A stretch of DNA of 38,174 nucleotides from a virus (Duplodnaviria > Caudoviricetes): positions 1-38,174 of the IMG/VR virus record IMGVR_UViG_3300031716_000027. One strand, 5' to 3'. A model generated the notes under the pieces. The model searched no databases. It saw nothing but the letters and a program-made list of their open reading frames with translations, and was not told where the DNA came from. Numbering within the stretch: the first letter of the stretch is position 1; every line of letters begins with the position of its first letter. Shown in pieces: positions 564 through 37,811 of the stretch. Both the position numbers and the translations under genes were made by a program.

Positions 564-1047
564 AAGACCTTTTCAGGGCCATGACTGCAAGTGTGGTTAT
601 TCAGAAAAATCAAATGACTCAAAAACAAAACGCTCATCACGCGATGAGTGGATTTTAAAACAGCGTCAGGAATTAAATTCATTGCAATGTCAATATGCAA
701 GGATGAAAGAATACGAAGAAACGGCAATAGGCGAAGAAACAAAACAAGCGTGTAAGTTTTTAAAAGAAACAGCAGCGTTAAAATTAAGCGAGTTAAAAAT
801 TACATGTCAAAATTACTGGAGTGAAATTTGTGAGTTACCGAGCGAATCAAAATGCCACGGGTTTGATTCAGGCAGTCGGTCGAGTTGTACAAAATTTGGT
901 CTGATAGCTCACTTGGGTAGCGATTCTTGGTTTTGCTTCTCCCACTTCGATGGCGGCTCGTTGAACCCTAGGCCTGTAGGTATGCCAAGGCCTGTTGGAG
1001 ATGTCTTACCCTACCCCCATAGGATTGGAAAAATCGACATAGGTTAA
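541..1047 (+). CDS. Cys-rich (Zn-binding) hypothetical protein downstream of the initiator
   Basis: CPEC...CKCG at the N-terminus and C..C..CxxH near the C-terminus. Overlaps the initiator stop; ATG at 541. Confidence 0.65.
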   Translation: MKKCPECERPFQGHDCKCGYSEKSNDSKTKRSSRDEWILKQRQELNSLQCQYARMKEYEETAIGEETKQACKFLKETAALKLSELKITCQNYWSEICELPSESKCHGFDSGSRSSCTKFGLIAHLGSDSWFCFSHFDGGSLNPRPVGMPRPVGDVLPYPHRIGKIDIG

Positions 1048-1431
1048 GGGTAGTTTTAGGTAGTTATCAATTATTTCTTTGCAAGACTCGAAACCTAGGC
1101 CAAATTCTGCACAGTAACCAATTCCCGACAAACGTGCTAAAAGTTGTATTTGTCGGGAGAGATGGGCAGACGCCTTTAATGTGCCGTTCTTATTATATAC
1201 CTCTTTCATTGAGCGTTTAATCTCAATACATAAGCCATGAAATTCACCTCGCGGCTCTAAAATTATCAGGTCGGGTATACCTGCTTCGCTACGTTGATTT
1301 TTGATGCGTTTTGCTTGTCCAATTGTGGTTTTAATGCCACCACTTTCAGATGTAAATATGACTTTTGGATATCTCCATTTTATGTACTGACATATCGCTG
1401 TATGTATGTCAGATTCTTTTAAAGTTTTCAT
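1006..1431 (-). CDS. VRR-NUC domain nuclease (Holliday junction resolvase-like)
   Basis: ESDIH..I, AGIPDLIIL, GLCIEIK, Q...L..L...GY motifs of the PD-(D/E)xK VRR-NUC family. Confidence 0.85.
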   Translation of the reverse strand: MKTLKESDIHTAICQYIKWRYPKVIFTSESGGIKTTIGQAKRIKNQRSEAGIPDLIILEPRGEFHGLCIEIKRSMKEVYNKNGTLKASAHLSRQIQLLARLSGIGYCAEFGLGFESCKEIIDNYLKLPLTYVDFSNPMGVG

Positions 1432-1439
1432 TATTTATC

Positions 1440-1467
1440 TTTACTTTTAGAAGAAAAATGTTAAACT
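1440..1467 (+). promoter_or_regulatory. Putative sigma70 promoter, antisense to the leftward operon
   Basis: TTTACT (1440-1445), 16-bp spacer, extended -10 TGtTAAACT (1459-1467). Confidence 0.45.
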
Positions 1468-1472
1468 AATTT

Positions 1473-1537
1473 AGTCGCAGTTTGTTCCTTTCTGCGACTT
1501 TTTGCCCCTAGTAGCTCGCAACCCTAGGGGCTTTTTT
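1473..1537 (+). ncRNA. Candidate ~65-nt two-hairpin small RNA
   Basis: Hairpin AGTCGCAG-TTTGTTCCTTT-CTGCGACT followed by a terminator hairpin, immediately downstream of the putative promoter. Confidence 0.45.
1504..1537 (+). terminator. Rho-independent terminator
   Basis: GCCCCTAG...CTAGGGGC stem followed by a T run. Confidence 0.75.
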
Positions 1538-1745
1538 ATAATGGCTTAATTTTATTGGAATTAAGCTCTGAACTAACATTGATTATAAGCCTTATTTTAT
1601 TTAAAATATCTGACTCCACTTCTTCCGAAAGCTTTTCAGCAAAAGAATTTTTAAAAGTAATTCCCTCGCCATAAGCTATGGCAACGATTACTCTTTCTAG
1701 CTCTCGCAATATTTGTTGCCTCGCCATCTGAATATCGTAACGCAT
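1536..1745 (-). CDS. Hypothetical protein
   Basis: ORF coupled to the upstream gene in the tightly packed leftward operon. Confidence 0.6.
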   Translation of the reverse strand: MRYDIQMARQQILRELERVIVAIAYGEGITFKNSFAEKLSEEVESDILNKIRLIINVSSELNSNKIKPL

Positions 1746-1978: not shown

Positions 1979-2009
1979 TTTTCCCCCTAATTTTCAAGGG
2001 GAAATTATA

Positions 2010-2890: not shown

Positions 2891-2895
2891 TTTTT

Positions 2896-3174
2896 TTATT
2901 CCTTTTCGTCTGTTAAATAAAGATTATCGAGATTGGCATATAATATTTTAGCAAATTCAGCAGGAAGCTTCTCTTGCGAGTCCGATAGCTTTTTAAAGAA
3001 ACTATTGAGTTCTTTTTGAGCGTCATCAAGAATCACTGCGTTTTCTTTGTCCTCTTCGTATTCGTCCTCATCCCAGTCACGTGGCTGTGGGTGGTCGCCA
3101 TCGTCCTGGGGGTCTGGCATGCATTGTTGGCCGTAGCCATAGAATTCAGGGATTAAGCTCATTTTATGTCGCAT
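2896..3174 (-). CDS. Acidic hypothetical protein
   Basis: In-operon ORF with an acidic tract DWDEDEYEED. Confidence 0.6.
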   Translation of the reverse strand: MRHKMSLIPEFYGYGQQCMPDPQDDGDHPQPRDWDEDEYEEDKENAVILDDAQKELNSFFKKLSDSQEKLPAEFAKILYANLDNLYLTDEKE

Positions 3175-4349: not shown

Positions 4350-4625
4350 TCAGTGCAAATTTTTGTCGGTTGAGTTGAGCGAATTTAATAATGATTCCAA
4401 TTCGCCTCTTGGAAATGCTCCTTTAAGCTGCTCAATCATTTTTTCAGCGGCTGGGCTGAATCTGAAATCAATGATAACCACTTGTTCGTTAGTTTCCGAA
4501 TTTCTCAGCAAATCAGCTTCTTTTAAATAAATTTGCTGACTTAAAAGCCTGAAGTAGATAGGGGCGTCTTTTTCGGCATGCGATTTTATGTCATTTAGGT
4601 GCTTTATTAGTTCGTCAATTGTCAT
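4350..4625 (-). CDS. Hypothetical protein, paralogue of 4641-4961
   Basis: MTIDELIKHLNDIK...DKNLH versus MKLSELIDALNRIK...DKNIH. Confidence 0.7.
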   Translation of the reverse strand: MTIDELIKHLNDIKSHAEKDAPIYFRLLSQQIYLKEADLLRNSETNEQVVIIDFRFSPAAEKMIEQLKGAFPRGELESLLNSLNSTDKNLH

Positions 4626-4640
4626 TTGGGTTATTCCTTT

Positions 4641-5295: not shown

Positions 5296-5324
5296 AGTAT
5301 AGTGTTTTAAAACTTAAATGTCAA
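5296..5324 (-). promoter_or_regulatory. Strong sigma70 promoter for leftward operon 1
   Basis: TTGACA (5324-5319), 17 bp, TATACT (5301-5296), with an AT-rich upstream region. Confidence 0.85.
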
Positions 5325-5444
5325 GTTAAAATAACTTAAAACTTTAAATATTTTCCAGTACGTTAAAAGATAAAATTAAAAGCTAGTATTTATGCGGGTT
5401 GTGGCGTATTTTTATTTTTTATGTGAGATATTACTTACAACAAG

Positions 5445-5480
5445 TAGAGAAATTTCTTACAAAATTTTGAGAAATTTCTT
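5445..5480. promoter_or_regulatory. Paired palindromic operator-like sites AGAAATTTCT
   Basis: Copies at 5448-5457 and 5470-5479, 22 bp apart. The 19-mer at 5445-5463 recurs at 37548-37566. Confidence 0.6.
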
Positions 5481-8009: not shown

Positions 8010-10163
8010 ATGGTACAGAAAAAATACAAAAGTGAGCTTAAGACCCTTAAGCGACTCGTTGAAGCATCGTGCGATTATTTCAAGGCCAATAATCAGCGAT
8101 TCCACGCGTTCCAGCGCTTTACATTTCAATCTGCTTTAAATACACCAGACGTTGACACGTTACAAGCGCTTCAAAAGCCTGTCATTGAATTCAATATTGT
8201 TAATGCGCCAGTCGATAGATTATGCGGTGAATGGAGCAAACAGCAGCCATCAATATATGTTAGCGCTGAGGATGGCAAGCAGCTTGACCCGCAGATGCTC
8301 GGGGTGCTGGATGGTCATATAAGGCATATTATTTACAATCTTAATAAAGATAATACGCAGTACGGCGTATATCGTGACCAATTATCCGGCGGCTTTAGCA
8401 TGTATAAATGCTACGCTAAATACAAAAATGAAATGAGCTTTGAACAAGATTTAATTGTTGAGCGTATATTTGAACCCACGCTTGCCGGTTTTGACCCAAT
8501 GTCGCGTAAAGTGACTAAAAGCGATGCTGATTATTACTTTGAAATCTTCCCGATGCCAGAAGAAGAGTTCAAGATTGAATATCCAGGTCAAAAAACCGAA
8601 AATATGAGCTTCATTAAGCTAGATGGCCAATCTATTTCGTGGTCATATACTGATGGTAAGAATAAACGATTTGTAGTTGTCTGCGATATATACAAGAAAA
8701 AGCGCACAGAAATGACTATATTGAAACTTGCTGACGGACGAACAGTTACACAAGATGCGTATAACGAGGAAATGGAAAAATGGGATTCGATTGCGCAGCC
8801 ACCTGAAATTGTAAATACTCGAAAATCGATGATGACAAAAATTTGCAGATATCGAATCAATGAAATTGATGTACTAGATTACGAGGAAACCCCGTATAGA
8901 AACAATAATATTATATTCGTTGATGGTAATTCTGTAACAATAAAAGACGAAGGCAATGGCAACTTTAAGCAGTTTACCAAGCCGTATATTTATCACGCCA
9001 AAGGCTTGCAGCAGCTTACCAATTTAGCTGGACAAATGATTGGTAATGATTTTGAAAACATGGTTATGCACAAATTTATGGTAGCTAAAGAGGCTATACC
9101 GCAGGAAGAGGAATACAAAGAAGCTCTTATAAATCCTCAAGTATCGCAAGTGCTGGTTTACAACGCCTTCATGGATAATGACCCCGATAAACCCGAATTG
9201 CCACCCATTCAGCCTGTGCAGCGCGTACCATTACCTAACGAGGTCACTAATGTATTTAACAACTGCATGCAAATGCTTCAAAATATACTGGGAAGCTATG
9301 ATGCACAGTTAGGTATTCAGCAAACACAATTATCAGGGGTTGCTATCACGGAGGGCGCTACACAGTCTAATGCAGCGGCAATGCCATATGTAGTAAATTA
9401 CATGCATGCATTAAACGATGTAGCGCAATGGTGCCTTGACATGATACCAAAGATATACAAAACGCCCCGCACTATTCCGATTGTTACTAAAGACGGCCAA
9501 TCTGCATTTGTCGAAATTAACGGGGAAAATGGCCCCAAGATTGATTATGACTCATGTGATTTAAATGTTCGCGTTGAGGCGGGTGTAAGCTTTTCGGTTG
9601 CCAAGAATCGAGCTATACAGCAAATTACTGCTTTAATGAGTGTGTCACAAGAATTTGCTGCATTTATGAACAGCGTGGGCTTGCCTGTCTTGTTAGATAA
9701 TCTCGAATTCCGGGGCGTTGACATACTAAAAGATATGGCGCAAAAGTGGATGGAGCAACAACAACAAAACCAACAGCCAAGCCCTGAAGAGCTTAACGCA
9801 CAGGCAGCCAATACCCGTGCGCAAGCAACTATGGTGGATGCGCAAACAAACGCGGCTTTGGCTCAAAGCAAAATACAAGAAAGCTCTTACAACACCGCAA
9901 TAAAAGCAAAGCAGCAAGAAACAGCCCAGCAAGACGCCGATACAGACCGCTTGAAAGTATTGGCAGCTATTGGAGAAAATAGAAACAAATTACTGCTTGA
10001 CGCATCAAAAGTACAAGCGGAGGAAGGCCGTACAAAAGTGGAGATGGCATCGATAGTGCATGAATCAATGCTCAATCAACAAGACCAAGAGCACCGACAT
10101 TTAAAAGATATTATCGAGATGGCTCAGCCCTCACAAGATGAGGCGCAGGAAAATTTAAGTTAA
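8010..10163 (+). CDS. Portal protein (P22-like)
   Basis: 717 aa directly after TerL, with QLSGVAI and a long Q/A-rich C-terminal coiled-coil barrel like the P22 portal. Confidence 0.85.
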   Translation: MVQKKYKSELKTLKRLVEASCDYFKANNQRFHAFQRFTFQSALNTPDVDTLQALQKPVIEFNIVNAPVDRLCGEWSKQQPSIYVSAEDGKQLDPQMLGVLDGHIRHIIYNLNKDNTQYGVYRDQLSGGFSMYKCYAKYKNEMSFEQDLIVERIFEPTLAGFDPMSRKVTKSDADYYFEIFPMPEEEFKIEYPGQKTENMSFIKLDGQSISWSYTDGKNKRFVVVCDIYKKKRTEMTILKLADGRTVTQDAYNEEMEKWDSIAQPPEIVNTRKSMMTKICRYRINEIDVLDYEETPYRNNNIIFVDGNSVTIKDEGNGNFKQFTKPYIYHAKGLQQLTNLAGQMIGNDFENMVMHKFMVAKEAIPQEEEYKEALINPQVSQVLVYNAFMDNDPDKPELPPIQPVQRVPLPNEVTNVFNNCMQMLQNILGSYDAQLGIQQTQLSGVAITEGATQSNAAAMPYVVNYMHALNDVAQWCLDMIPKIYKTPRTIPIVTKDGQSAFVEINGENGPKIDYDSCDLNVRVEAGVSFSVAKNRAIQQITALMSVSQEFAAFMNSVGLPVLLDNLEFRGVDILKDMAQKWMEQQQQNQQPSPEELNAQAANTRAQATMVDAQTNAALAQSKIQESSYNTAIKAKQQETAQQDADTDRLKVLAAIGENRNKLLLDASKVQAEEGRTKVEMASIVHESMLNQQDQEHRHLKDIIEMAQPSQDEAQENLS

Positions 10164-10317: not shown

Positions 10318-11040
10318 ATGACAGATTTAAATAATGATGTAACATCGGATTCAATAGACGCTTTTCAAGCAGATGATGCAAGTGTAAGCACTGAATCAAC
10401 GAATGAAGCGGCGGTAACTGAAAGCGCCCCGGTGACTGAGAAATTAATTCCACAGTCGCAAGTTAATAGAATTGTAAGCGCGAGACTCAAAGAGCAAGCG
10501 GCACAGCAAGAGAGATTAAAAGCTCAAGCCCAGCAAGCTACTCCACAGCCTCTATCTTACGAGCAGCAAACCGGACAAGCAGGCTTAAGTGAAGCGCAGC
10601 TCAGACAAATTATTCAGCAAGAAGCAGCTAAATTAGCTCATATTGATAAAGCTAATTCAATTGCCAAAAGCTACACAGGCAAAATCAATGAAGCAATGAA
10701 TAGTGACCCTGAATTTGCCGAGTTATACAGTGATTTAAATATCGAGGAACACCCTGAGCTAGTACTTTTAGTCAATGAACTGGATAATACGGCAGCAGTT
10801 ATTAAAGATATCGCCAAAAATCCAGCTAAGTTCTCTAATGTACTTATGCTTGCTAGTGCCGGTAAGATTGGGTTAGCCAAAAAAGCCTTGAGCGGCTTAT
10901 CTAATTCAATCAAAACTAATGAAGCGGCGAAAAAGCAAGAGATAGCCCCAGCCCCTCTAAGTCAAATGAAACCATCACACTTAAGCGCGGGTGATGGCAG
11001 AATGACTGTAAGAGATTTTAAGAGCCAATTTAGAGGCTAA
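10318..11040 (+). CDS. Capsid scaffolding protein
   Basis: Between portal and coat. Acidic disordered N-terminus, helical A/Q/E-rich body and a short C-terminal helix. Confidence 0.75.
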   Translation: MTDLNNDVTSDSIDAFQADDASVSTESTNEAAVTESAPVTEKLIPQSQVNRIVSARLKEQAAQQERLKAQAQQATPQPLSYEQQTGQAGLSEAQLRQIIQQEAAKLAHIDKANSIAKSYTGKINEAMNSDPEFAELYSDLNIEEHPELVLLVNELDNTAAVIKDIAKNPAKFSNVLMLASAGKIGLAKKALSGLSNSIKTNEAAKKQEIAPAPLSQMKPSHLSAGDGRMTVRDFKSQFRG

Positions 11041-11098: not shown

Positions 11099-12412
11099 AT
11101 GGCTAGTATCCCGAGCAATATTCTACAGAATGTACAAACATTCCAAATGGCAGAGTTGGCATTTTTGCAAAACTCGTTTGCCGCTATCGCGTTATCGAAC
11201 AAAAAGTTTAAAGATTTTAATAACTTAACTGCAAATCTGGGTGACACTGTAACATTTGACTTGGCGCCTCGCTTCACAAGCCGTCCTGGTCTTGTTATTA
11301 CTCAACAACCATCCGTGCAACGTCCACAAACGTTAGTTTGTTCGCAAGCTGAAAACGTTTCAAGCGCGTACACCGACCAACAATTTATCTTCAATGTTGA
11401 AGATTATATGAGCCGTTTCGGCATGTCTGCTGTAAAAGAATTGGGCACGAAAATTGAAGCTGATATCTTAAAAAGCGTTATTTCTGAATTACGCGTAAAT
11501 GACCCCGAGGCAAATAATTTCGGCTCTTTGATTCAAAACACTGGCCCATTCCGCTTTTTCGGGAATGGCATTACTCAAATTAACAGCTTTTCACAATTAG
11601 CGCAGGCGCTGGCTAATTTCCGTGCATACGGTGCGGACATGGGCATGACGCGAGCCATTTTACCAATGGAAGTTATCCCAGCGATTGTGAATACCGGCCT
11701 TAATCAATTTGCCATGAGTCGTAACAACGAATTGGCAAACAGTTGGGAATTAGGCAAGTTTAGCAATTGTGATTGGTATCAATCCAATTTATTACCTGTC
11801 CATATCTCTGGCACGATTGGTGATGCTGCGGCACCTAATAATGTTGTTACCGTCGTTTCAACAAATGACCCAACCGGCAATAACATTACCGCTATTACAT
11901 TCACTGAGCCTACAAGTAGCTCCAGTGCTACGGCTTTTCGCGCTGGTGATATGCTGCAGTTTGACGATCCAACCTTTAAATTATTAACTTTTATTGGCCA
12001 TATTCAGACATCCTTGCCAGTGCAATTAGTGGTTACTCAAGATGCCATTAGTACAGCCGGTACGGTTACGGTTAATGTGCGCACTGTTACTAACATTGGT
12101 TTGGTTTCTGCACCAACGCAAAATCAAAATATTAACAAGGCGATTACTGCTGGCATGACCGCAACTGTGGTGCCAAGCCACCGAGCTGGTGTCATCTGGT
12201 CGGGTGACACTTGGTACTTAGCTATGCCAAAACTGCCGGATTATGAACCTTATCCGTCTGTGCAAACGGTTGACCCTGATTCAGGCGTCACAGTTCGGCA
12301 CTATTGGGGTTCGCTCTTCGGTCAAAACGTACGCTCTTATGTTCGTGACAATATTTGGGGCTCGACGTTAGTACCTGAAAACTGTATGCGCCTCATATTC
12401 CCTTTAACTTAG
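11099..12412 (+). CDS. Major capsid (coat) protein, P22-like
   Basis: 437 aa; NLGDTVTFDLAPRF motif and an insertion domain (FRAGDMLQF) as in the P22 coat family; followed by a terminator. Confidence 0.88.
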   Translation: MASIPSNILQNVQTFQMAELAFLQNSFAAIALSNKKFKDFNNLTANLGDTVTFDLAPRFTSRPGLVITQQPSVQRPQTLVCSQAENVSSAYTDQQFIFNVEDYMSRFGMSAVKELGTKIEADILKSVISELRVNDPEANNFGSLIQNTGPFRFFGNGITQINSFSQLAQALANFRAYGADMGMTRAILPMEVIPAIVNTGLNQFAMSRNNELANSWELGKFSNCDWYQSNLLPVHISGTIGDAAAPNNVVTVVSTNDPTGNNITAITFTEPTSSSSATAFRAGDMLQFDDPTFKLLTFIGHIQTSLPVQLVVTQDAISTAGTVTVNVRTVTNIGLVSAPTQNQNINKAITAGMTATVVPSHRAGVIWSGDTWYLAMPKLPDYEPYPSVQTVDPDSGVTVRHYWGSLFGQNVRSYVRDNIWGSTLVPENCMRLIFPLT

Positions 12413-12421
12413 ACTGAGACC

Positions 12422-12447
12422 AAAGGAGCCTTAATTGGCTCCTTTTT
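12422..12447 (+). terminator. Rho-independent terminator after the coat gene
   Basis: AAAGGAGCC-TTAATT-GGCTCCTTTTT. Confidence 0.75.
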
Positions 12448-17499: not shown

Positions 17500-19520
17500 T
17501 GAATATACAAGAATTTAAACAGCAGTATCCAGCCTATAAAGATATACCAGATGATGTGCTGGCGGATAAGCTGTACAATAAATTCTATTCTACGGCGATG
17601 AGTCGAGAAGATTTTAATAAAAAATTGGGGATGCAGACGCAGGTGTCTACACAGCCTCAAAACGGCATAGTTAATCAAATAGGCCAAGGTATTGGGAATA
17701 CGGCTCAAGACTTAATCGGTATGGGCGCTGGCGCAATTAATGCTATTGTTCATCCTGTTGATACAGCTAAATCAACGGCGCAAGCTTTATCACATCCCGT
17801 TGATTTAGCAAGAGACGTCACACAAGGCGCGCTTCAAGGTACAATTAATTTAGGGGCGCTCCTGAATAAGGGTTTGACGGCTGGCGTTAATAAAGCGCTT
17901 GGCACCCAACTTGCCGCCCCTGATGTATCCAATTTTGCCGCCCCAGTGGGCTCTGGCAAGTCCGGTCTTTCCAATCAAATAGCGCGCGGTTTTGGTTCAT
18001 TTGCTCCGTTGGCTCTTACTGGAGGTGAATCTATTTTAGGTCAATTGTTAGCTGCTTCTTTGTCAAGCGCGGCAAATGCCCCGAAAGGTAATGAGGTATC
18101 AGGCTTAACGGAGGGCTTGTTAACTAGCGCATTACCATTAAGCGTTTTAAAAGGCGCTGAAGCTTTAAGACCAAGCTCTATATTTAGAGGTAATTTATCA
18201 CCAGAGCAATTAAGCTCAAATTTGCAACAAACTGCTGGTACCACAACGGGGCTTGGTGATGTTATTCACAATAAATTCCTAAAAGATACAATGGAAAACA
18301 CGCTTCCATCTTTGCCATTTTCTAATGCAAATGAAACTATGCAGAAAACAGCGCAGCAAGTTAATGATAAAGGCGCTGATTTACTTAAAAAAATGTTGGG
18401 AGATACCCAACAACCTGAAGACATCCCCGCAACATTACAAAGCGCATTAGGGACCGCCTTAAAATCAGTTCAACAACAAAAACGGCAAAAATATAATGAA
18501 CTTAACACGGAAGCTGAAAAAAGTGGCTTAACTATTAGTAATAATAATCTACAGCAAACTGCCGCCGATAGGTTAACTGAAATTCAAAGCGATCCAGATT
18601 TAGCCCGAAAGGTTTCGCCTGCAATTTTAGCCGATTTGCAACATTATGCTGCTGGAAATGCCGATAAAAAGACGTTAAAAAATGCCGATATTCTTCGAGG
18701 GATGATGGGCGATAGTGCGCAATCCGCTTTTGAAAATGGCAATAATTATGAGTACGGGATTCATAAAGATTTGCAAGGCGCAATACAATCGGACATAAAC
18801 GAATCAATAAATAATTCCGGTAATGATAAATTAAAGCAATTAAGAGATTCTGCGCACAAATTCTATGCAACAAGCGTAGCTCCGTTTGAAACGGCTGAAA
18901 TAATGAAATACACCCGTCAAGGTGGCGATCCAGATTTATTATTAAATAGTTTTATAAAAACTACTTCCGTTTCTGACAGAGGTAGGCTACTAAAACAATT
19001 AATGGAAAAACTGCCAGAAAATCAATCACGTGTTGTTCCATTCGCGTATTACTCCAGGGCGGTTAAAAACGGGGAATTCAATCCCCAAAAATTTGCATCT
19101 TTACATAACGCTTTAGGTGAAGAGCAAAAAAGGGTTTTAGTATCAGATGATAATTTAAGAAAGTCAATAGATAACTATAGTGGATTGGTGCAAAAAAACA
19201 AAGAACCCTTAAATGCCATGTTCAACCCTCCTACCGGAGCTCGTAATAAATTTTTGGCGCCACTTTCTTTAATGTCAAGCGGGGCAAGTATTGGCTCAGC
19301 AATAGGCGGCATCCCAGGCGCTATATTGGGGGCAACGACTGGCCTAATAGCTCCAGGACTTGCTTCACGGCCAATAGCTAAAGCACTTACGTCAGAAAAA
19401 ATAAGAAATAATTTAGTTAATGCAATGGTACAAAATAAGGTTAAAATTAACACACCAAGGAATAGGATGTTGGCAAATACTTTAATGCAAGCATTAACCA
19501 ATCAACCAGGAGCACGATAA
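17499..19520 (+). CDS. Large ejection protein, gp16-like position
   Basis: EF..QYP.Y.D..D..LAD..Y.KFY N-terminal motif; Gly/Ala-rich putative membrane segments. Confidence 0.65.
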   Translation: MNIQEFKQQYPAYKDIPDDVLADKLYNKFYSTAMSREDFNKKLGMQTQVSTQPQNGIVNQIGQGIGNTAQDLIGMGAGAINAIVHPVDTAKSTAQALSHPVDLARDVTQGALQGTINLGALLNKGLTAGVNKALGTQLAAPDVSNFAAPVGSGKSGLSNQIARGFGSFAPLALTGGESILGQLLAASLSSAANAPKGNEVSGLTEGLLTSALPLSVLKGAEALRPSSIFRGNLSPEQLSSNLQQTAGTTTGLGDVIHNKFLKDTMENTLPSLPFSNANETMQKTAQQVNDKGADLLKKMLGDTQQPEDIPATLQSALGTALKSVQQQKRQKYNELNTEAEKSGLTISNNNLQQTAADRLTEIQSDPDLARKVSPAILADLQHYAAGNADKKTLKNADILRGMMGDSAQSAFENGNNYEYGIHKDLQGAIQSDINESINNSGNDKLKQLRDSAHKFYATSVAPFETAEIMKYTRQGGDPDLLLNSFIKTTSVSDRGRLLKQLMEKLPENQSRVVPFAYYSRAVKNGEFNPQKFASLHNALGEEQKRVLVSDDNLRKSIDNYSGLVQKNKEPLNAMFNPPTGARNKFLAPLSLMSSGASIGSAIGGIPGAILGATTGLIAPGLASRPIAKALTSEKIRNNLVNAMVQNKVKINTPRNRMLANTLMQALTNQPGAR

Positions 19521-27189: not shown

Positions 27190-27266
27190 TGGTCGGAGCA
27201 GAAGGATTTGAACCTTCGACCAATCGCTTCCAAAGCGAGTACGCTACCCGGCTGCGCTATGCTCCG
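27190..27266 (-). tRNA. tRNA-Pro(UGG), 77 nt, CCA encoded
   Basis: Cloverleaf CGGAGCA/TGCTCCG, D arm GCGC/GCGT, anticodon loop TTTGGAA, T arm GAAGG-TTCAAAT-CCTTC, ACCA end; C1-G72 and A73. Confidence 0.93.
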
Positions 27267-32569: not shown

Positions 32570-33122
32570 CCTCTTTTAATTTTTTAAGAATTAAATTGAC
32601 TTGGTACTCTATTTCTTCGTCATAAACGCAAGTATGAAAAGCAGCGCGAACTGCAGAAGCAGCTGTTAAATAGACGCCCCATTTATTAGCATGAGCTATA
32701 AAAAAGGCTGCATGAGCGGCACTATCGCTAGCATAAACAACGCTCAACTCACTGCGAAGGTGGCTAGCCCAAGTGGAGGCATTATGAGCACCCACTGCAG
32801 CAATTTCCGCAGCTTCTTTATCCCCACTTCGAGCCGCTTCTATCGCCTTCCTTGGTCGATCGTCATCGGGATATTTAGCCTCAAAAATGGGTAGGACATG
32901 TTCAGCGAAATCGCATACTAATTCAGATTGCCGTTCTATAGTCAAAAAATTATGAAAAAGCACCCACTGCTTATCATACCAACTAATTTTATCTAACTGA
33001 CAAAACTCCTCTATACTGCCGCTCCAATCTGCGTAATACGTTAAGTAGTTTTCCCATCTGTCGTCGCATGGCTCCAGCGATGCTAGGAACTCTCTATTTA
33101 TAATGGTGTTAATATTGTTCAT
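32550..33122 (-). CDS. Imm5-like domain protein
   Basis: CDFAEHVLPIFE..YP.D.RPRKAIEAAR followed by Ala-rich helices. Confidence 0.75.
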   Translation of the reverse strand: MNNINTIINREFLASLEPCDDRWENYLTYYADWSGSIEEFCQLDKISWYDKQWVLFHNFLTIERQSELVCDFAEHVLPIFEAKYPDDDRPRKAIEAARSGDKEAAEIAAVGAHNASTWASHLRSELSVVYASDSAAHAAFFIAHANKWGVYLTAASAVRAAFHTCVYDEEIEYQVNLILKKLKEDATNEA

Positions 33123-33126
33123 GCCT

Positions 33127-33450
33127 TTATTCCTTTATGAAAGTTTCATAAAAGTCCTTATGCGTCTGATTCGAAGGCGGAAAATTTGTAAAATATATTT
33201 TTAATATACCAGCCTCTATTTTATTCAATTTAACTTTACTTTTTTGCCTAAGGATTGATTGAAAGCACATCGTTAAAGCCAACCATGCTTGGCTAGAACG
33301 CTTGTTACTTTCAATCATTTGATTTTTGTAATAGTCAATCAAAAATTCCTGAATATGATTAAGAAATTCCGGTTCGTTTTCCACTTGACGGTGCATTAGC
33401 TCTAATAAGGTGCGTTTATCTATATCCCAGTCTTTATTGTTCATTTTCAC
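33127..33450 (-). CDS. Hypothetical protein
   Basis: Abuts both neighbours in the operon. Confidence 0.6.
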   Translation of the reverse strand: MKMNNKDWDIDKRTLLELMHRQVENEPEFLNHIQEFLIDYYKNQMIESNKRSSQAWLALTMCFQSILRQKSKVKLNKIEAGILKIYFTNFPPSNQTHKDFYETFIKE

Positions 33451-33679: not shown

Positions 33680-34423
33680 TTAATTCACCTCATATTTTAA
33701 AGTTACAAACGCCGCCACATTAGACAGCTTGCCTTCTTCCCATACCTTGTCATCTGTGACACCATCGCAAGAATTGTTCTCGCCGTACTTTGCTTCGCCT
33801 AAACTGGTATATTGCAGACGCGCTCCTAGAGCTATTGAGTTTGTTACATGATAATCAACACCCAGCACTACATCCCAAGCAAATTGGCTTGCTTCGATGT
33901 CTGCGCTATTTGGCACGCTATCAGGATTGCCGCCATCATTCCAATACTCTTTGCCATTATTAAAGGCCACACCAAGACCGCCACCAATATAAGGAGTAAT
34001 GACACTACGTGGCAGTACATCCCAGTACATGTTAACCAAAAGCGCTTGCGATGTTAAAGAATACTTTCGATCAAGCGACACTGGATGTGTTGACTTATCT
34101 GGGTAAGTAACAATTTCAGATGTCATTGCTGACTTATCTATATCGCCAAAATCATAATAACCAATACCAAGCTTAATCGGGATGCGACTTTTATTAAACA
34201 GGTCGTAACCAATCTCATCATAAGCAGCAAAGCCTATATCATGTAAATTAACATTATTAGATAAATTGAAGTTAGGTGACCCCGGAGCTTCATTGTCAAT
34301 GACATTTGACATAGATGCGGCTCCGACACCAATTTGTTCATAAGTGCCAATAGCATCGTTTTTAATAGACGCGTGAGCCGATAGGGATACAGAAACCAAC
34401 ATAGATATGATTAACTTTTTCAT
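33680..34423 (-). CDS. Outer-membrane beta-barrel protein (Opa/LomR/OMP_b-brl-like), 247 aa
   Basis: Signal peptide MKKLIISMLVSVSLSAHA; LLVNMYWD, TPYIGGGLGVA, FAW....GVDY.VT....L...Y..LG motifs. True start is 34423, after an AAGGA RBS. Confidence 0.85.
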   Translation of the reverse strand: MKKLIISMLVSVSLSAHASIKNDAIGTYEQIGVGAASMSNVIDNEAPGSPNFNLSNNVNLHDIGFAAYDEIGYDLFNKSRIPIKLGIGYYDFGDIDKSAMTSEIVTYPDKSTHPVSLDRKYSLTSQALLVNMYWDVLPRSVITPYIGGGLGVAFNNGKEYWNDGGNPDSVPNSADIEASQFAWDVVLGVDYHVTNSIALGARLQYTSLGEAKYGENNSCDGVTDDKVWEEGKLSNVAAFVTLKYEVN

Positions 34424-34448
34424 TCCTTTATTCCTTTTTAAAAAAAAT

Positions 34449-34859
34449 TTAGCCGTTGCCATCAACATCGTCACAGCCAGAGCCAGAGCCATCATCCCAG
34501 CCCTCACCATCACCCAAGCCAGAGCCATCGCCAGAGCCATCATCCCAGCCCTCACCATCACCCGAGCCATAGCCATGGCCATAGCCAGAGCCATAGCCAG
34601 AGCCATAGCGATAGCCATAATCCCAGCCCTGACCATCACCCGAGCCATGGCCAGAGCCCGAGCCATAGCCATGGCCAGAGCCCGAGCCATAGCCAGAGCC
34701 ATAGCGATAGCCATAATCCCAGCCCTGACCATCACCCGAGCCATGGCCAGAGCCCGAGCCAGAGCCATGGCCAGAGCCCGAGCCCGAGCCATAGCCATCA
34801 CCATAGGCCCGGCTACGCACGGAGCCATATAATTTATTTAAATTTTTTTGATAAATCAT
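34449..34859 (-). CDS. Gly-X repeat protein (GSGYGDG-type)
   Basis: Starts 5 bp after the DUF6948-like gene stop; about 115 aa of G-X dipeptides. Confidence 0.7.
   Translation of the reverse strand: MIYQKNLNKLYGSVRSRAYGDGYGSGSGSGHGSGSGSGHGSGDGQGWDYGYRYGSGYGSGSGHGYGSGSGHGSGDGQGWDYGYRYGSGYGSGYGHGYGSGDGEGWDDGSGDGSGLGDGEGWDDGSGSGCDDVDGNG
34475..34806. repeat. Hexamer-periodic low-complexity repeat with a 78-bp exact duplication (34588-34665 and 34684-34761)
   Basis: AGAGCC/ATAGCC/CGAGCC units; 96-bp higher-order period. Confidence 0.85.
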
Positions 34860-34864
34860 ATGAA

Positions 34865-35260
34865 TTATCCATTATGAATTTTGAAATTTTTTAAATTATC
34901 TATCGCTATTGAAGAGCAGGGAATAATTTCACAGACTTGAGATAGCAATATATAGTTGACAGTCTCAGAAATTTTACCATCTTTAATACCGTTATTAGCG
35001 ATAGCAGATAATGTAAACGCACCTTCCCAATACCATAGGCGCCGCGAATCTGATAATTGAATGCAAAGATTTTTTTCGTCGAAATCTTTTACGACACCAA
35101 AATGTACGCCAGCTGCATACGTTCGTATAATGCAATATTTTCCAATAAAATATTCATACATTGGTGAATTTGTAGATTTATCAATTTTATTGCCATGGCC
35201 ATCTAATGCCTCTACAATATTCAGCAGCTCCAATAGTCCTTCTATTTTCGATTTAACCAT
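34865..35260 (-). CDS. DUF6948-like protein
   Basis: IIRTY.AGVHFG, L..SRRLWYW.GA.TLS..A..G, EIIPC motifs. Confidence 0.8.
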   Translation of the reverse strand: MVKSKIEGLLELLNIVEALDGHGNKIDKSTNSPMYEYFIGKYCIIRTYAAGVHFGVVKDFDEKNLCIQLSDSRRLWYWEGAFTLSAIANNGIKDGKISETVNYILLSQVCEIIPCSSIAIDNLKNFKIHNG

Positions 35261-35289
35261 TTATCTCTCCAAGTTTAATTTTAAAAAAT

Positions 35290-35434
35290 CAGCTTCAGAG
35301 GCAAGCAGCACGATTATTCGTTTTCTTACCTGCCCCATCCACCTCCTAACGCTTTCCCGCACGACCCGAAATCAAATTAGTGCCAGTTTTCACCTTAGCC
35401 AGACTGGCAGCCGACTTGCGCTATCCTGCGCCGC
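35290..35434 (-). ncRNA. Candidate structured RNA element (hairpin + pseudoknot, copy B, plus a further long hairpin)
   Basis: AGTCGG/CTGGCT stem; loop TGCCAGT pairs with ACTGGCA; downstream GGGGCAGGTA/TGCTTGCCTC hairpin; GC-rich island in an intergenic gap. Confidence 0.45.
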
Positions 35435-35489
35435 TATGAAGATGATTAAAACAGTTTTTATACCCATAACAGCCTATAGTATTTTAAAA

Positions 35490-36880: not shown

Positions 36881-36909
36881 AGTATAAATCATTAAACTTG
36901 AAATGTCAA
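36881..36909 (-). promoter_or_regulatory. Strong sigma70 promoter for leftward operon 2
   Basis: TTGACA (36909-36904), 17 bp, TATACT (36886-36881); homologous to the 5296-5324 promoter. Confidence 0.85.
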
Positions 36910-36920
36910 GCTAAAATAAA

Positions 36921-37412
36921 TTAAAACTTCAAATTAAATTCATTCATCACCTGAACCCAGTATTCAAGCGTGCTATCAAAGAATGAATGCAACAAAGGCA
37001 AGTCAGTCTCTTTGATAGTATTGCTATCAATAATTGCTTGTACGCGGGGGTGGACATATGAGGTGTAATACTCATCTACTGAAATACCCAGTATTTCAGC
37101 TTTAGATTGAAGATGATTGTTTTTAATGAAGTCTTTTAAACTTTCCACTCCATTAACCAGTGACGCCGTAGTTTCATTAATTAATGATAAAGAAATACGC
37201 CCCCTTGAGAGCTTCTCCATGATTTTAATGTATTTTTGAGAGGGTCGGTAAAAGCCATGATACCAATTCCATGCACTGGTACTTGACACCCCCATAGCAA
37301 TCGCACCAGCCCGAATACTCGGATACTCATCAAAAAATCGTTGTATTTCTTTCACTACAAAAAATGGGATTTTTTGAGCTTTTGGGCGCCCTTTGAATGT
37401 ATTTTTTTTCAT
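36921..37412 (-). CDS. HTH transcriptional regulator (Cro/YdaS-like N-terminal HTH)
   Basis: A.AMGVS..S..NW..G...PS......E.LS.G.I pattern; divergent from the replication operon; no S24 peptidase domain seen. Confidence 0.7.
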   Translation of the reverse strand: MKKNTFKGRPKAQKIPFFVVKEIQRFFDEYPSIRAGAIAMGVSSTSAWNWYHGFYRPSQKYIKIMEKLSRGRISLSLINETTASLVNGVESLKDFIKNNHLQSKAEILGISVDEYYTSYVHPRVQAIIDSNTIKETDLPLLHSFFDSTLEYWVQVMNEFNLKF

Positions 37413-37490: not shown

Positions 37491-37566
37491 TTGACATTCC
37501 ATTACATTACCATTAACTTAAATTGCTTTCTTAACAATTACTTAAGTTAGAGAAATTTCTTACAAA
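37491..37566 (+). promoter_or_regulatory. Putative rightward promoter with a downstream AGAAATTTCT operator-like site
   Basis: TTGACA (37491-37496)-17-TAACTT (37514-37519); palindrome at 37551-37560. Confidence 0.5.
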
Positions 37567-37583
37567 CAACATGAATGGAGATA

Positions 37584-37811
37584 ATGATGATTGAGAAAAA
37601 AGCCCGAGAAATTGCCCTCGAAAATGGTCATGCAAGTTACATGTCAGATAAACCATGTATAAACGGTCACCTTTCAAAAAGAAGCACTGTTTATGGAAAT
37701 TGTTACAAATGTATTATCGAAGCGCAAAAACGAAATATCGTGAAACGAAAAGAGTTGCTCGAGATTGGCAGACAAAAGCAAATTGAAAAGGAATTGAACA
37801 AAAATGGCTAG
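37584..37811 (+). CDS. Small Zn-finger protein (KPC.NGH...R.....C..C)
   Basis: Motif usually seen N-terminal to phage HNH nucleases, here stand-alone; GGAG RBS before the ATGs at 37584/37587. Confidence 0.7.
   Translation: MMIEKKAREIALENGHASYMSDKPCINGHLSKRSTVYGNCYKCIIEAQKRNIVKRKELLEIGRQKQIEKELNKNG

What the first reader, a model, noticed from the sequence alone, without database searches (positions are those of the whole stretch)
1440..1537. Candidate sRNA whose loop is complementary to the RBS of several phage early genes
Seen: an extended -10 promoter, then hairpin AGUCGCAG[UUUGUUCCUUU]CUGCGACU, then an intrinsic terminator, all antisense to the leftward operon. The 11-nt loop pairs, with one G-U, to AAAGGAAUAAA. 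That sequence lies just upstream of the starts at 2890, 33122 and 34423 (the OMP); a 10-nt match AAAGGAAUAA precedes 4625. Inference: a trans-acting anti-Shine-Dalgarno sRNA that could silence a subset of phage or host genes, conceptually like P22 sar or lambda OOP but multi-target. Caveat: A-rich SD-like sequences are common in this AT-rich genome.
Basis: partly seen in the sequence, partly recalled or inferred. Interest (0 to 1): 0.7.

Follow-up and report, generated by a model that had tools for sequence, protein, structure and literature searches.

The report
Phage double-hairpin anti-ribosome-site small RNA
An uncultured soil phage carries a 65-base double-hairpin unit, between a promoter-like sequence and a terminator-like end, whose open loop is complementary to the ribosome-binding sites of four of its own leftward (likely early) genes, so it is likely a small RNA that would damp their translation; no transcript, homologue or effect has been seen.

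Summary
The window is a complete P22-like podophage genome, possibly of Legionellales. At 1473-1537 (+), antisense inside a leftward operon, lie an 8-bp hairpin with an open 11-nt loop, a second 8-bp hairpin and U6, behind an in-register extended -10. The loop pairs over 11 nt (one G-U) with three start regions (2890, 33122, 34423) and over 10 nt with a fourth (4625). These are all the other 11-nt complements in the genome. The fit exceeds chance: 0.25% of random loops with the same core reach it; the loop pairs over 11 nt with 2 of 1738 start regions in other records; no hairpin loop in 43 related records reaches more than two starts. Against: no orthologue, so no covariation test; no expression data; duplexes of only about -10 kcal/mol; two target sites look structured; relative G016 shares such ribosome sites without a hairpin. 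Best reading (about 0.6): a trans-acting anti-Shine-Dalgarno sRNA built like Burkholderia double-hairpin RNAs, also fully antisense to its own operon. It fails every Rfam threshold. This scan has noted the same kind of element in 29 findings on other genomes (unchecked AI notes).

The parts
1440..1445 (+). -35-like hexamer TTTACT (4 of 6), 16-nt spacer to the -10
   Evidence: sequence; scored
1459..1467 (+). extended -10-like TG-n-TAAACT; predicted +1 at A1473 or G1474, the first base of hairpin 1
   Evidence: as good a promoter in this register in 1.5% of 100,000 shuffles of the upstream 41 nt and at 0.5% of genome positions; not listed by the generic scan
1473..1537 (+). predicted 65-nt double-hairpin sRNA
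   Evidence: fold -25.6 kcal/mol; z -2.2 for 1440-1545, 4 of 200 shuffles as stable; only one of 23 promoter-terminator units in 44 records with significant trans start-region matches
1473..1499 (+). hairpin 1, perfect 8-bp stem; followed by a short U run, so it could also act as a weak terminator
   Evidence: one of 6 perfect stems of at least 8 bp with at least 4 G-C in the genome
1481..1491 (+). open loop UUUGUUCCUUU, the predicted seed
   Evidence: opening cost 0.1 kcal/mol; pairing statistics
1504..1537 (+). hairpin 2 (8 bp, 12-nt loop) plus U6: intrinsic-terminator-like end, overlapping the stop codon of the leftward gene 1536-1745
2895..2905 (-). predicted target 1: AAAGGAAUAAA before the start at 2890 (103-aa protein of an unnamed viral family); contains the upstream stop codon
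   Evidence: opening cost 4.5 kcal/mol
4631..4640 (-). predicted target 2: AAAGGAAUAA before the start at 4625 (91-aa orphan protein)
   Evidence: second best after accessibility
33126..33136 (-). predicted target 3: AAAGGAAUAAA before the start at 33122 (190 aa, Imm5-like domain); contains the upstream stop codon
   Evidence: not among the best 12 after accessibility
34427..34437 (-). predicted target 4: AAAGGAAUAAA before the start at 34423 (247-aa outer-membrane beta-barrel, PagN/Hra-like by model features)
   Evidence: best after accessibility
37787..37794 (+). possible weak target: 8-nt complement before the replication-initiator start at 37804
1006..1431 (-). last gene of the leftward operon (phrog_824; weak VRR-NUC match), lying just downstream of the cis-antisense stretch on the leftward mRNA; no Shine-Dalgarno-like sequence before its start
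1536..1745 (-). 69-aa orphan gene whose stop codon abuts the U tail
5296..5324 (-). TTGACA-17-TATACT promoter-like site ahead of the leftward operon holding targets 1, 2 and the element
36881..36909 (-). TTGACA-17-TATACT promoter-like site ahead of the leftward operon holding targets 3 and 4
1387..1412 (+). weak terminator-like hairpin upstream of the promoter, inside the antisense strand of gene 1006-1431

Best explanation
The unit at 1473-1537 is likely a 65-nt phage small RNA whose open first loop is predicted to pair with the Shine-Dalgarno region of four leftward, likely early, phage mRNAs and would block ribosome loading there. Shown in sequence: two stable hairpins, a U tail, a promoter-like element in register, and 10-11-nt complementarity to four start regions spread over both leftward operons. 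Inferred: transcription from the extended -10, or release from the 3' end of the rightward replication-operon transcript (37575 through 1047, reading on antisense through 1006-1431); stabilisation through the U tail by host Hfq; repression of the outer-membrane barrel, the Imm5-like protein and two small proteins once the early phase ends. Because it lies antisense inside the 5240-1006 operon, the RNA would also pair over its whole length with that mRNA just upstream of gene 1006-1431. The mRNA would soak up the RNA while early transcription is strong, and the RNA would win when it falls: a threshold switch (inferred).
For: All 3 other 11-nt complements in 38 kb are at starts; of 7 complements of at least 10 nt, 4 are at starts, 1 is the element's own strand and 2 are elsewhere. 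Nulls: 0.25% of core-matched random loops, 2 of 495 permutations. Of 103 hairpin loops genome-wide (nested variants counted) only the two variants of this one reach 4 starts; 6 reach one, 95 none. The 10-mer shared by most start regions of this genome is exactly the one the loop complements, and no loop in 43 related records reaches more than 2 starts (the 34423 start was added by hand). Cross-genome control: at least 10 nt with 15 of 1738 and 11 nt with 2 of 1738 foreign start regions, against 3 and 2 of 57 own with the same automatic caller; Fisher p 0.018 and 0.006, or 0.003 and 0.0003 with the missed 34423 start added. Promoter in register p about 0.015. The same size and layout as validated sRNAs: Burkholderia double-hairpin RNAs of 57-67 nt with CU-rich segments complementary to ribosome sites (PMC5688073, passages); sub-threshold Rfam alignments to TarA, anti-hemB, LhrC and RF02278. 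Hfq is present in 3 of 3 Legionellales genomes that carry a related capsid gene.
Against: No orthologue was found, so conservation and covariation are untested. Loop-target duplexes are only -9.7 to -10.7 kcal/mol; after target opening costs, 33122 falls out of the best 12, 2890 drops to -6.2, and a late gene (19520, 7-nt match) ranks third. The loop has G where all four targets would prefer A. TAA in two sites is explained by an upstream stop codon. G016 has 3 AAAGGAAYAA starts and another 10-mer shared by 4 starts, without any matching hairpin. The window's loop also pairs over 11 nt with a start in the unrelated phage G250. Restriction to leftward genes is not significant (4 of 35 against 0 of 24, p 0.12). 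Two look-alike elements in unrelated phages show no special fit to their own genomes (G248: no start at 9 nt or more; G250: 2 of 30, not top-ranked). Foreign start regions in the control are not independent of each other.
Confidence: 0.6

Rival explanations
1. The two hairpins are tandem intrinsic terminators that stop rightward transcription from the replication operon before it runs into the leftward genes. The loop match is incidental, for instance a leftover ribosome site of a lost leftward gene seen from the other strand.
For: The rightward operon ends at 1047 overlapping gene 1006-1431, so 1432-1535 is the first intergenic space; both hairpins have U runs on the plus strand only. AAAGGAAYAA is this phage's commonest extended ribosome site and all 5 copies are on the minus strand. 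Antisense-facing terminators occur in several relatives without a seed that fits own starts.
Against: It needs the ribosome-site mirror to fill exactly the loop of a perfect 8-bp stem and a promoter to fall in register by chance. No ATG, GTG or TTG follows the minus-strand copy. Termination and sRNA function are compatible.
Confidence: 0.2
2. An OOP-like cis-antisense RNA: its job is full-length pairing with the leftward mRNA between genes 1536-1745 and 1006-1431, triggering double-strand cleavage and lowering the last gene; trans matches are secondary.
For: Antisense position inside an operon with own promoter and terminator, as described for OOP (PMC12197685, part 2). The only perfect complement of the loop is the leftward mRNA itself. 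Relatives G008/G009 and G004 carry antisense promoter-terminator units next to a probable replication-initiator start.
Against: The RNA covers neither the start nor the coding region of 1006-1431 (41 nt away). Cis action puts no constraint on loop sequence and so does not explain the fit to four distant starts.
Confidence: 0.1
3. The functional strand is the minus strand: the hairpins are mRNA elements of the leftward operon, with AAGGA displayed in a loop as a site for CsrA or a phage RNA-binding protein that also binds the four AAGGA ribosome sites, or acting as processing or stability signals.
For: All five copies of the motif read in the sense of the leftward mRNAs. CsrA is present in 3 of 3 candidate host-like genomes. 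Hairpin 2 gains extra G-U pairs only on the minus strand.
Against: CsrA reads a short ANGGA motif, usually in a small loop (recalled), which would not explain 10-11 nt of identity. The next start (1431) has no GGA for a second site. U tails and the promoter are on the plus strand.
Confidence: 0.1

Closest known systems
Burkholderia double-hairpin RNAs ncS03/ncS05/ncS27/ncS62 (Rfam RF02278, 'toxic small RNA'); PMC5688073, passages read
   Same: About 60-65 nt, almost entirely two hairpins, CU-rich unpaired segment complementary to ribosome-binding sites, several predicted targets.
   Different: Chromosomal, 3-5 copies per genome, metabolic targets; here single-copy, phage-borne, aimed at own genes. 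Score 14.3 bits against a threshold of 50.
Vibrio TarA (Rfam RF02537); PMC5225090, passages read
   Same: Best Rfam alignment (31.8 bits, E 0.0006): the 3' domain has a similar stem, a U/C-rich loop, a UUUUGCCCC terminator start and a U tail. TarA is an Hfq-dependent repressor pairing with the 5' region of ptsG mRNA.
   Different: Below the threshold of 80; TarA's 5' hairpin has no real counterpart (that stretch is the promoter here); ToxT control and ptsG target not applicable.
c4 antisense RNA of phages P1/P7; PMC12197685, passage read
   Same: Phage RNA that uses looped sequences to bind around a ribosome site of the phage's own mRNA and block translation.
   Different: c4 controls one antirepressor operon and sets immunity; no Rfam C4 match here; targets here are four scattered genes and the seed mirrors the Shine-Dalgarno itself.
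lambda OOP and P22 sar; PMC12197685, part 2 read
   Same: Short antisense unit with own promoter and terminator inside a phage operon.
   Different: They act in cis on the overlapped gene (cII, ant); here no start or coding region is overlapped beyond a stop codon.
Listeria LhrC and Rli47 (CU-rich loop sRNAs); Rli47 from PMC12596718, passages read. Enterobacterial CyaR-ompX is recalled only
   Same: A hairpin loop pairs with the Shine-Dalgarno of target mRNAs; the hairpin-1 loop aligns to the LhrC 3' loop at 17.5 bits.
   Different: Host chromosomal regulators of other phyla; far below threshold (110). The passages found for CyaR only cite the papers and do not confirm the loop mechanism.

Membership tests
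RF02278 double-hairpin (toxic) sRNAs | Score at or above the Rfam gathering threshold (50 bits) | tested here: not met
   14.3 bits, E 1.5; no hit at threshold
RF02278 double-hairpin (toxic) sRNAs | About 60 nt, two hairpins, unpaired CU-rich stretch complementary to ribosome sites | tested here: met
RF02278 double-hairpin (toxic) sRNAs | Expressed as a discrete RNA; inhibits growth when overexpressed | not testable with these tools
   needs RNA data or a bench test
TarA (RF02537) | Score at or above 80 bits, including the 5' hairpin | tested here: not met
   31.8 bits; similarity confined to the 3' two hairpins
C4 antisense RNA (P1/P7) | Match to the Rfam C4 model | tested here: not met
   no match at threshold or at E up to 10
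C4 antisense RNA (P1/P7) | Targets an antirepressor operon | tested here: not met
   none of the four predicted target proteins matches an antirepressor family
OOP/sar-type cis-antisense RNA | Own promoter and terminator antisense to a phage operon | tested here: met
   (predicted from sequence only)
OOP/sar-type cis-antisense RNA | Overlaps the start region or coding part of the regulated gene | tested here: not met
   ends at the stop of 1536-1745 and begins 41 nt from the start at 1431
Trans-acting loop-seeded anti-Shine-Dalgarno sRNA (functional class) | Accessible loop complementary to several start regions beyond chance | tested here: met
Trans-acting loop-seeded anti-Shine-Dalgarno sRNA (functional class) | Seed conserved, and covarying with targets, across homologues | tested here: inconclusive
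   no homologue found; no variation in the one independent contig covering it (X2)
Trans-acting loop-seeded anti-Shine-Dalgarno sRNA (functional class) | Transcript exists and represses targets by pairing | not testable with these tools
   needs RNA data or a bench test
16S rRNA 3'-tail mimic | Loop identical to the host anti-Shine-Dalgarno (CACCUCCUUA) | tested here: not met
   tail read from G229 (1 of 3 genomes matched); only UCCUU is shared, and the host is not established

The most novel reading that the evidence does not exclude
The phage runs an RNA-only early-to-middle switch. It has tuned the ribosome sites of a chosen set of early genes in two distant operons, including a surface beta-barrel that could remodel or shield the host envelope, to one shared 10-11-nt address. 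A minimal double-hairpin RNA made at the end of the replication operon reads that address, is titrated by its own antisense operon mRNA, and may also feed back on the replication initiator. Such address-coded translational shut-off would be a recurring, undescribed layer of phage gene control, with look-alike units in unrelated phages (L282, where loop C faces target G as loop G faces target U here).
Probability: 0.3. Interest if true: 0.75.

Novelty: new variant of a known kind. Interest (0 to 1): 0.48.

Why it matters
Known phage sRNAs that control the phage's own genes mostly act on one neighbouring target (OOP, sar, aQ, c4; PMC12197685). A 65-nt RNA that reads a shared extended Shine-Dalgarno on four genes in two operons would be a compact way to time a phage programme without a protein repressor, and it gives a cheap, sharp test (one loop, four sites, one compensatory base). 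Searches of the held library found no paper describing a phage anti-Shine-Dalgarno loop RNA aimed at its own early genes, but the library lacks most subscription journals. The mechanism class itself is known from bacterial sRNAs, and this instance has no comparative support yet.

Tried and rejected
Homologue searches. Exact hairpin pattern: 0 in viral contigs. Looser pattern in metagenomes: 26 loci, 1 the window's own record, 25 without the flanking stem or terminator. Upstream regions of 15 VRR-NUC-like homologues: no such unit. BLAST of 1430-1545 against 42 related records: only 14-22-nt pieces. Annotated phages: 93 weak terminator-sized hits, none covering 80%. One-sequence covariance model over 99 sources: the best foreign hits were loci chosen for sharing the terminator, which is circular; 0 of 150 Legionellales genomes, an empty answer that the tool says shows nothing. 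No look-alike in the scan's notes by place or sequence.

G008/G009 analogue (16 loci): its segment UUCCCUUUAUCC pairs over 11 nt with the major-capsid ribosome site in both genomes. Rejected as support, because the -10 (GATACT) puts the UUCCC core ahead of the predicted start of transcription, and it was 1 of 7 foreign seeds tried. G004 and G002 units: their anti-SD words are reverse complements of ribosome sites of short opposite-strand frames or lack own targets. G022: cis ribosome site of the adjacent gene. Architecture pattern: 25 loci in 18 groups, 2 groups with a GC stem and UUCCUUU loop; G248 has no own target, G250 is only suggestive.

Expression: no RNA holder listed among 3 runs, which is no evidence either way. 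DNA contigs of X1-X3 show no differences at the element. Loop 2 as a second seed: only bulged or 6-nt matches. Protein searches: OMP, 69-aa and 91-aa proteins have only self hits. Papers: searches returned none; TRIC-seq preprint passages were irrelevant. No supplements were opened; the table of 38 uncharacterised phage sRNAs in PMC12197685 might bear on novelty.

Full report
Setting. The window is a whole virus record with a 127-nt terminal repeat and 38.8% G+C. It encodes P22-like terminase, portal, capsid, head-closure and ejection proteins on the plus strand, a replication initiator crossing the ends, and two leftward operons of mostly unknown small genes behind near-consensus promoters at 5324 and 36909. 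Calling these operons early is inferred from those promoters and from a Sak4-like recombinase at the head of one. No integrase was detected. Three soil metagenome runs hold the phage. The capsid has relatives in a Legionella maceachernii record (L123, 48%; 1 of 6 loci, the other five being metagenome bins of unrelated taxa) and in 3 of 203 scored genomes of that order (49-65%), so a Legionellales-like host is possible but not shown.

The observation. Every part is present. The predicted RNA 1473-1537 folds into two 8-bp hairpins at -25.6 kcal/mol with both loops open. The two stems are 2 of only 6 perfect stems of that strength in the genome. The generic scan misses promoter and terminators because of its thresholds. 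With a score that credits the TG extension, an equal promoter in register with the first hairpin arises in 1.5% of shuffles and at 0.5% of genome positions; that score was set after seeing the site.

Is the loop match more than chance? Among 59 hand-set start regions, 3 pair over all 11 nt and 4 over at least 10; the next best is 8 nt, at the replication initiator. Genome-wide, the three 11-nt complements other than the element's own strand are all at starts. Nulls: 2 of 495 letter permutations, 0.25% of random 11-mers that already hold the core TCCTTT, 13 of 76,328 genome 11-mers. Of 103 hairpin loops only this one reaches four starts. In 43 related records or loci no loop reaches more than two. 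The loop fits its own genome better than others: 3 of 57 against 15 of 1738 at 10 nt, 2 of 57 against 2 of 1738 at 11 nt with one automatic caller that missed the 34423 start; p 0.018 and 0.006. In a survey of 23 promoter-terminator units in 44 records, this one alone had a significant number of trans matches (2 of 300 shuffles).

What weakens it. The duplexes are short and A-U rich (-9.7 to -10.7 kcal/mol). With target opening costs 34423 and 4625 stay on top, 2890 drops to fifth, 33122 leaves the best 12 and a late gene ranks third. In two sites TAA is the upstream stop codon. G016 shares the same ribosome site at three starts with no hairpin, so shared sites need no RNA to explain them. The bias to leftward genes is not significant (p 0.12). 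All five motif copies lie on the minus strand, so a relic ribosome site or a protein-binding site remains possible, though no start codon follows the copy in the loop.

Comparative evidence. None of the pattern, BLAST or model searches found an orthologue; the early region of this phage has almost no relatives. A promising analogue in G008/G009 was dropped because its seed core lies before the predicted transcription start. A pattern for the layout found two look-alike groups among 18. L282 (G250, lambdoid) sits as here, antisense inside the leftward operon right behind a stop codon, with a TG-n-TACGAT element upstream and loop UUUUCUUCCUUUU; three leftward starts carry AAGGAAG (9-10 nt pairing with up to two G-U), so loop C faces target G where here loop G faces target U. 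This is post hoc, one case, and G250 does not rank first for its own loop. L265/L283 (G248) has no own target. Covariation is therefore untested.

Mechanism. Most likely the RNA is made from the extended -10, or from the end of the rightward replication-operon transcript; a weak hairpin at 1387-1412 might stop part of that read-through. Its loop would seed on AAAGGAAUAA(A), cover the Shine-Dalgarno and spacer up to 3-5 nt before the AUG, and block 30S binding of an outer-membrane barrel (PagN/Hra-like by model features; PF13505), an Imm5-like protein and two small proteins. Hfq is available in the candidate host group. Complementarity to its own operon would let early mRNA titrate it. All functional steps are inferred.

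Comparison with known systems. No Rfam family is matched at threshold. Below threshold, TarA aligns best, then anti-hemB, LhrC and RF02278. It works like the Burkholderia double-hairpin RNAs (PMC5688073, passages) and, among phage RNAs, like c4 (PMC12197685, passage), but is a member of neither. It shares only the antisense layout with OOP and sar (PMC12197685, parts 1-2 of 6). The loop is not a copy of the 16S tail read from G229. TarA was read as passages of PMC5225090, Rli47 as passages of PMC12596718; PMC8294330 and the TRIC-seq preprint were seen as passages without bearing; the other papers only as listings. The CsrA motif and the CyaR loop mechanism are recalled.

Verdict. A real, well-formed element with a statistically solid fit to four of the phage's own start regions; probably a small RNA of a known mechanistic kind in an undescribed role; unsupported by conservation or expression. 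The scan has logged 29 similar findings elsewhere, unchecked here. Interest 0.48.

Noticed in passing
window 5446-5463 and 37549-37566 (+): An identical 18-mer, AGAGAAATTTCTTACAAA, with the palindrome AGAAATTTCT, lies ahead of both rightward operons (late genes; replication genes); 0.12 expected by chance at 3 mismatches. Candidate regulator site or phage promoter.
   Followed up: partly
window 5296-5350 and 36881-36935 (-): The two leftward promoter-like sites are both TTGACA-17-TATACT and share upstream sequence (AAGTTTTAA-n-TTATTTTA-n-C), suggesting a common operator.
   Followed up: no
window 33680-34423 (-): Phage-encoded outer-membrane beta-barrel with signal-peptide-like start, PagN/Hra-like by model features, with only a self hit in the protein database.
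   Followed up: partly
window 34449-35260 (-); L165 about 10426-10747: A Gly/Ser/Tyr/His-rich repeat frame follows a DUF6948 gene; relative G016 has a DUF6948-like gene and a similar repeat stretch.
   Followed up: no
window 35261-35489: A G-rich intergenic region folds strongly on the minus strand (-60 kcal/mol), with a hairpin whose loop shows AAGGUG; on the plus strand that loop reads UUUCACCUUAG, a second anti-Shine-Dalgarno-like loop without a terminator. A short frame with an AGGAGG site lies in it.
   Followed up: no
window 27193-27266 (-): A tRNA gene (Rfam), read by eye as tRNA-Pro(TGG), ends the second leftward operon; no integrase was detected.
   Followed up: no
L152 about 12030-12112 (+); L153 about 18680-18769 (+); L177-L192: A conserved antisense promoter-terminator unit of about 56 nt just upstream of a probable replication-initiator start in G008/G009 and 16 loci; promoter hexamers are kept while the spacer varies. 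OOP-like.
   Followed up: partly
L144 6960-7062 (+) (G004): A strong promoter and a 64-nt unit antisense to a string of ribosome sites and very short frames ahead of a 315-aa gene.
   Followed up: partly
L282 1340-1429 (+); L265 and L283 about 9990-10045 (+): Double-hairpin units of the same layout in unrelated phages, with loops UUUUCUUCCUUUU and UUUUGGUUCCUUU.
   Followed up: partly
L194, L200, L203, L211, L214 (upstream of the matched terminator): Unrelated phages carry CCUCC words 10-19 nt before a GCCCCUAG terminator with no opposite-strand gene using them; no Rfam match in the 9 loci scanned, L211 not among them.
   Followed up: partly
window 1979-1997: The ribosome site GGGGG of the gene starting at 1978 is buried in a minus-strand hairpin, a possible translational control element.
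   Followed up: no
window 12422-12445 (+): The terminator-like hairpin after the capsid gene has a Shine-Dalgarno word (AAAGGAG) paired in its stem.
   Followed up: no
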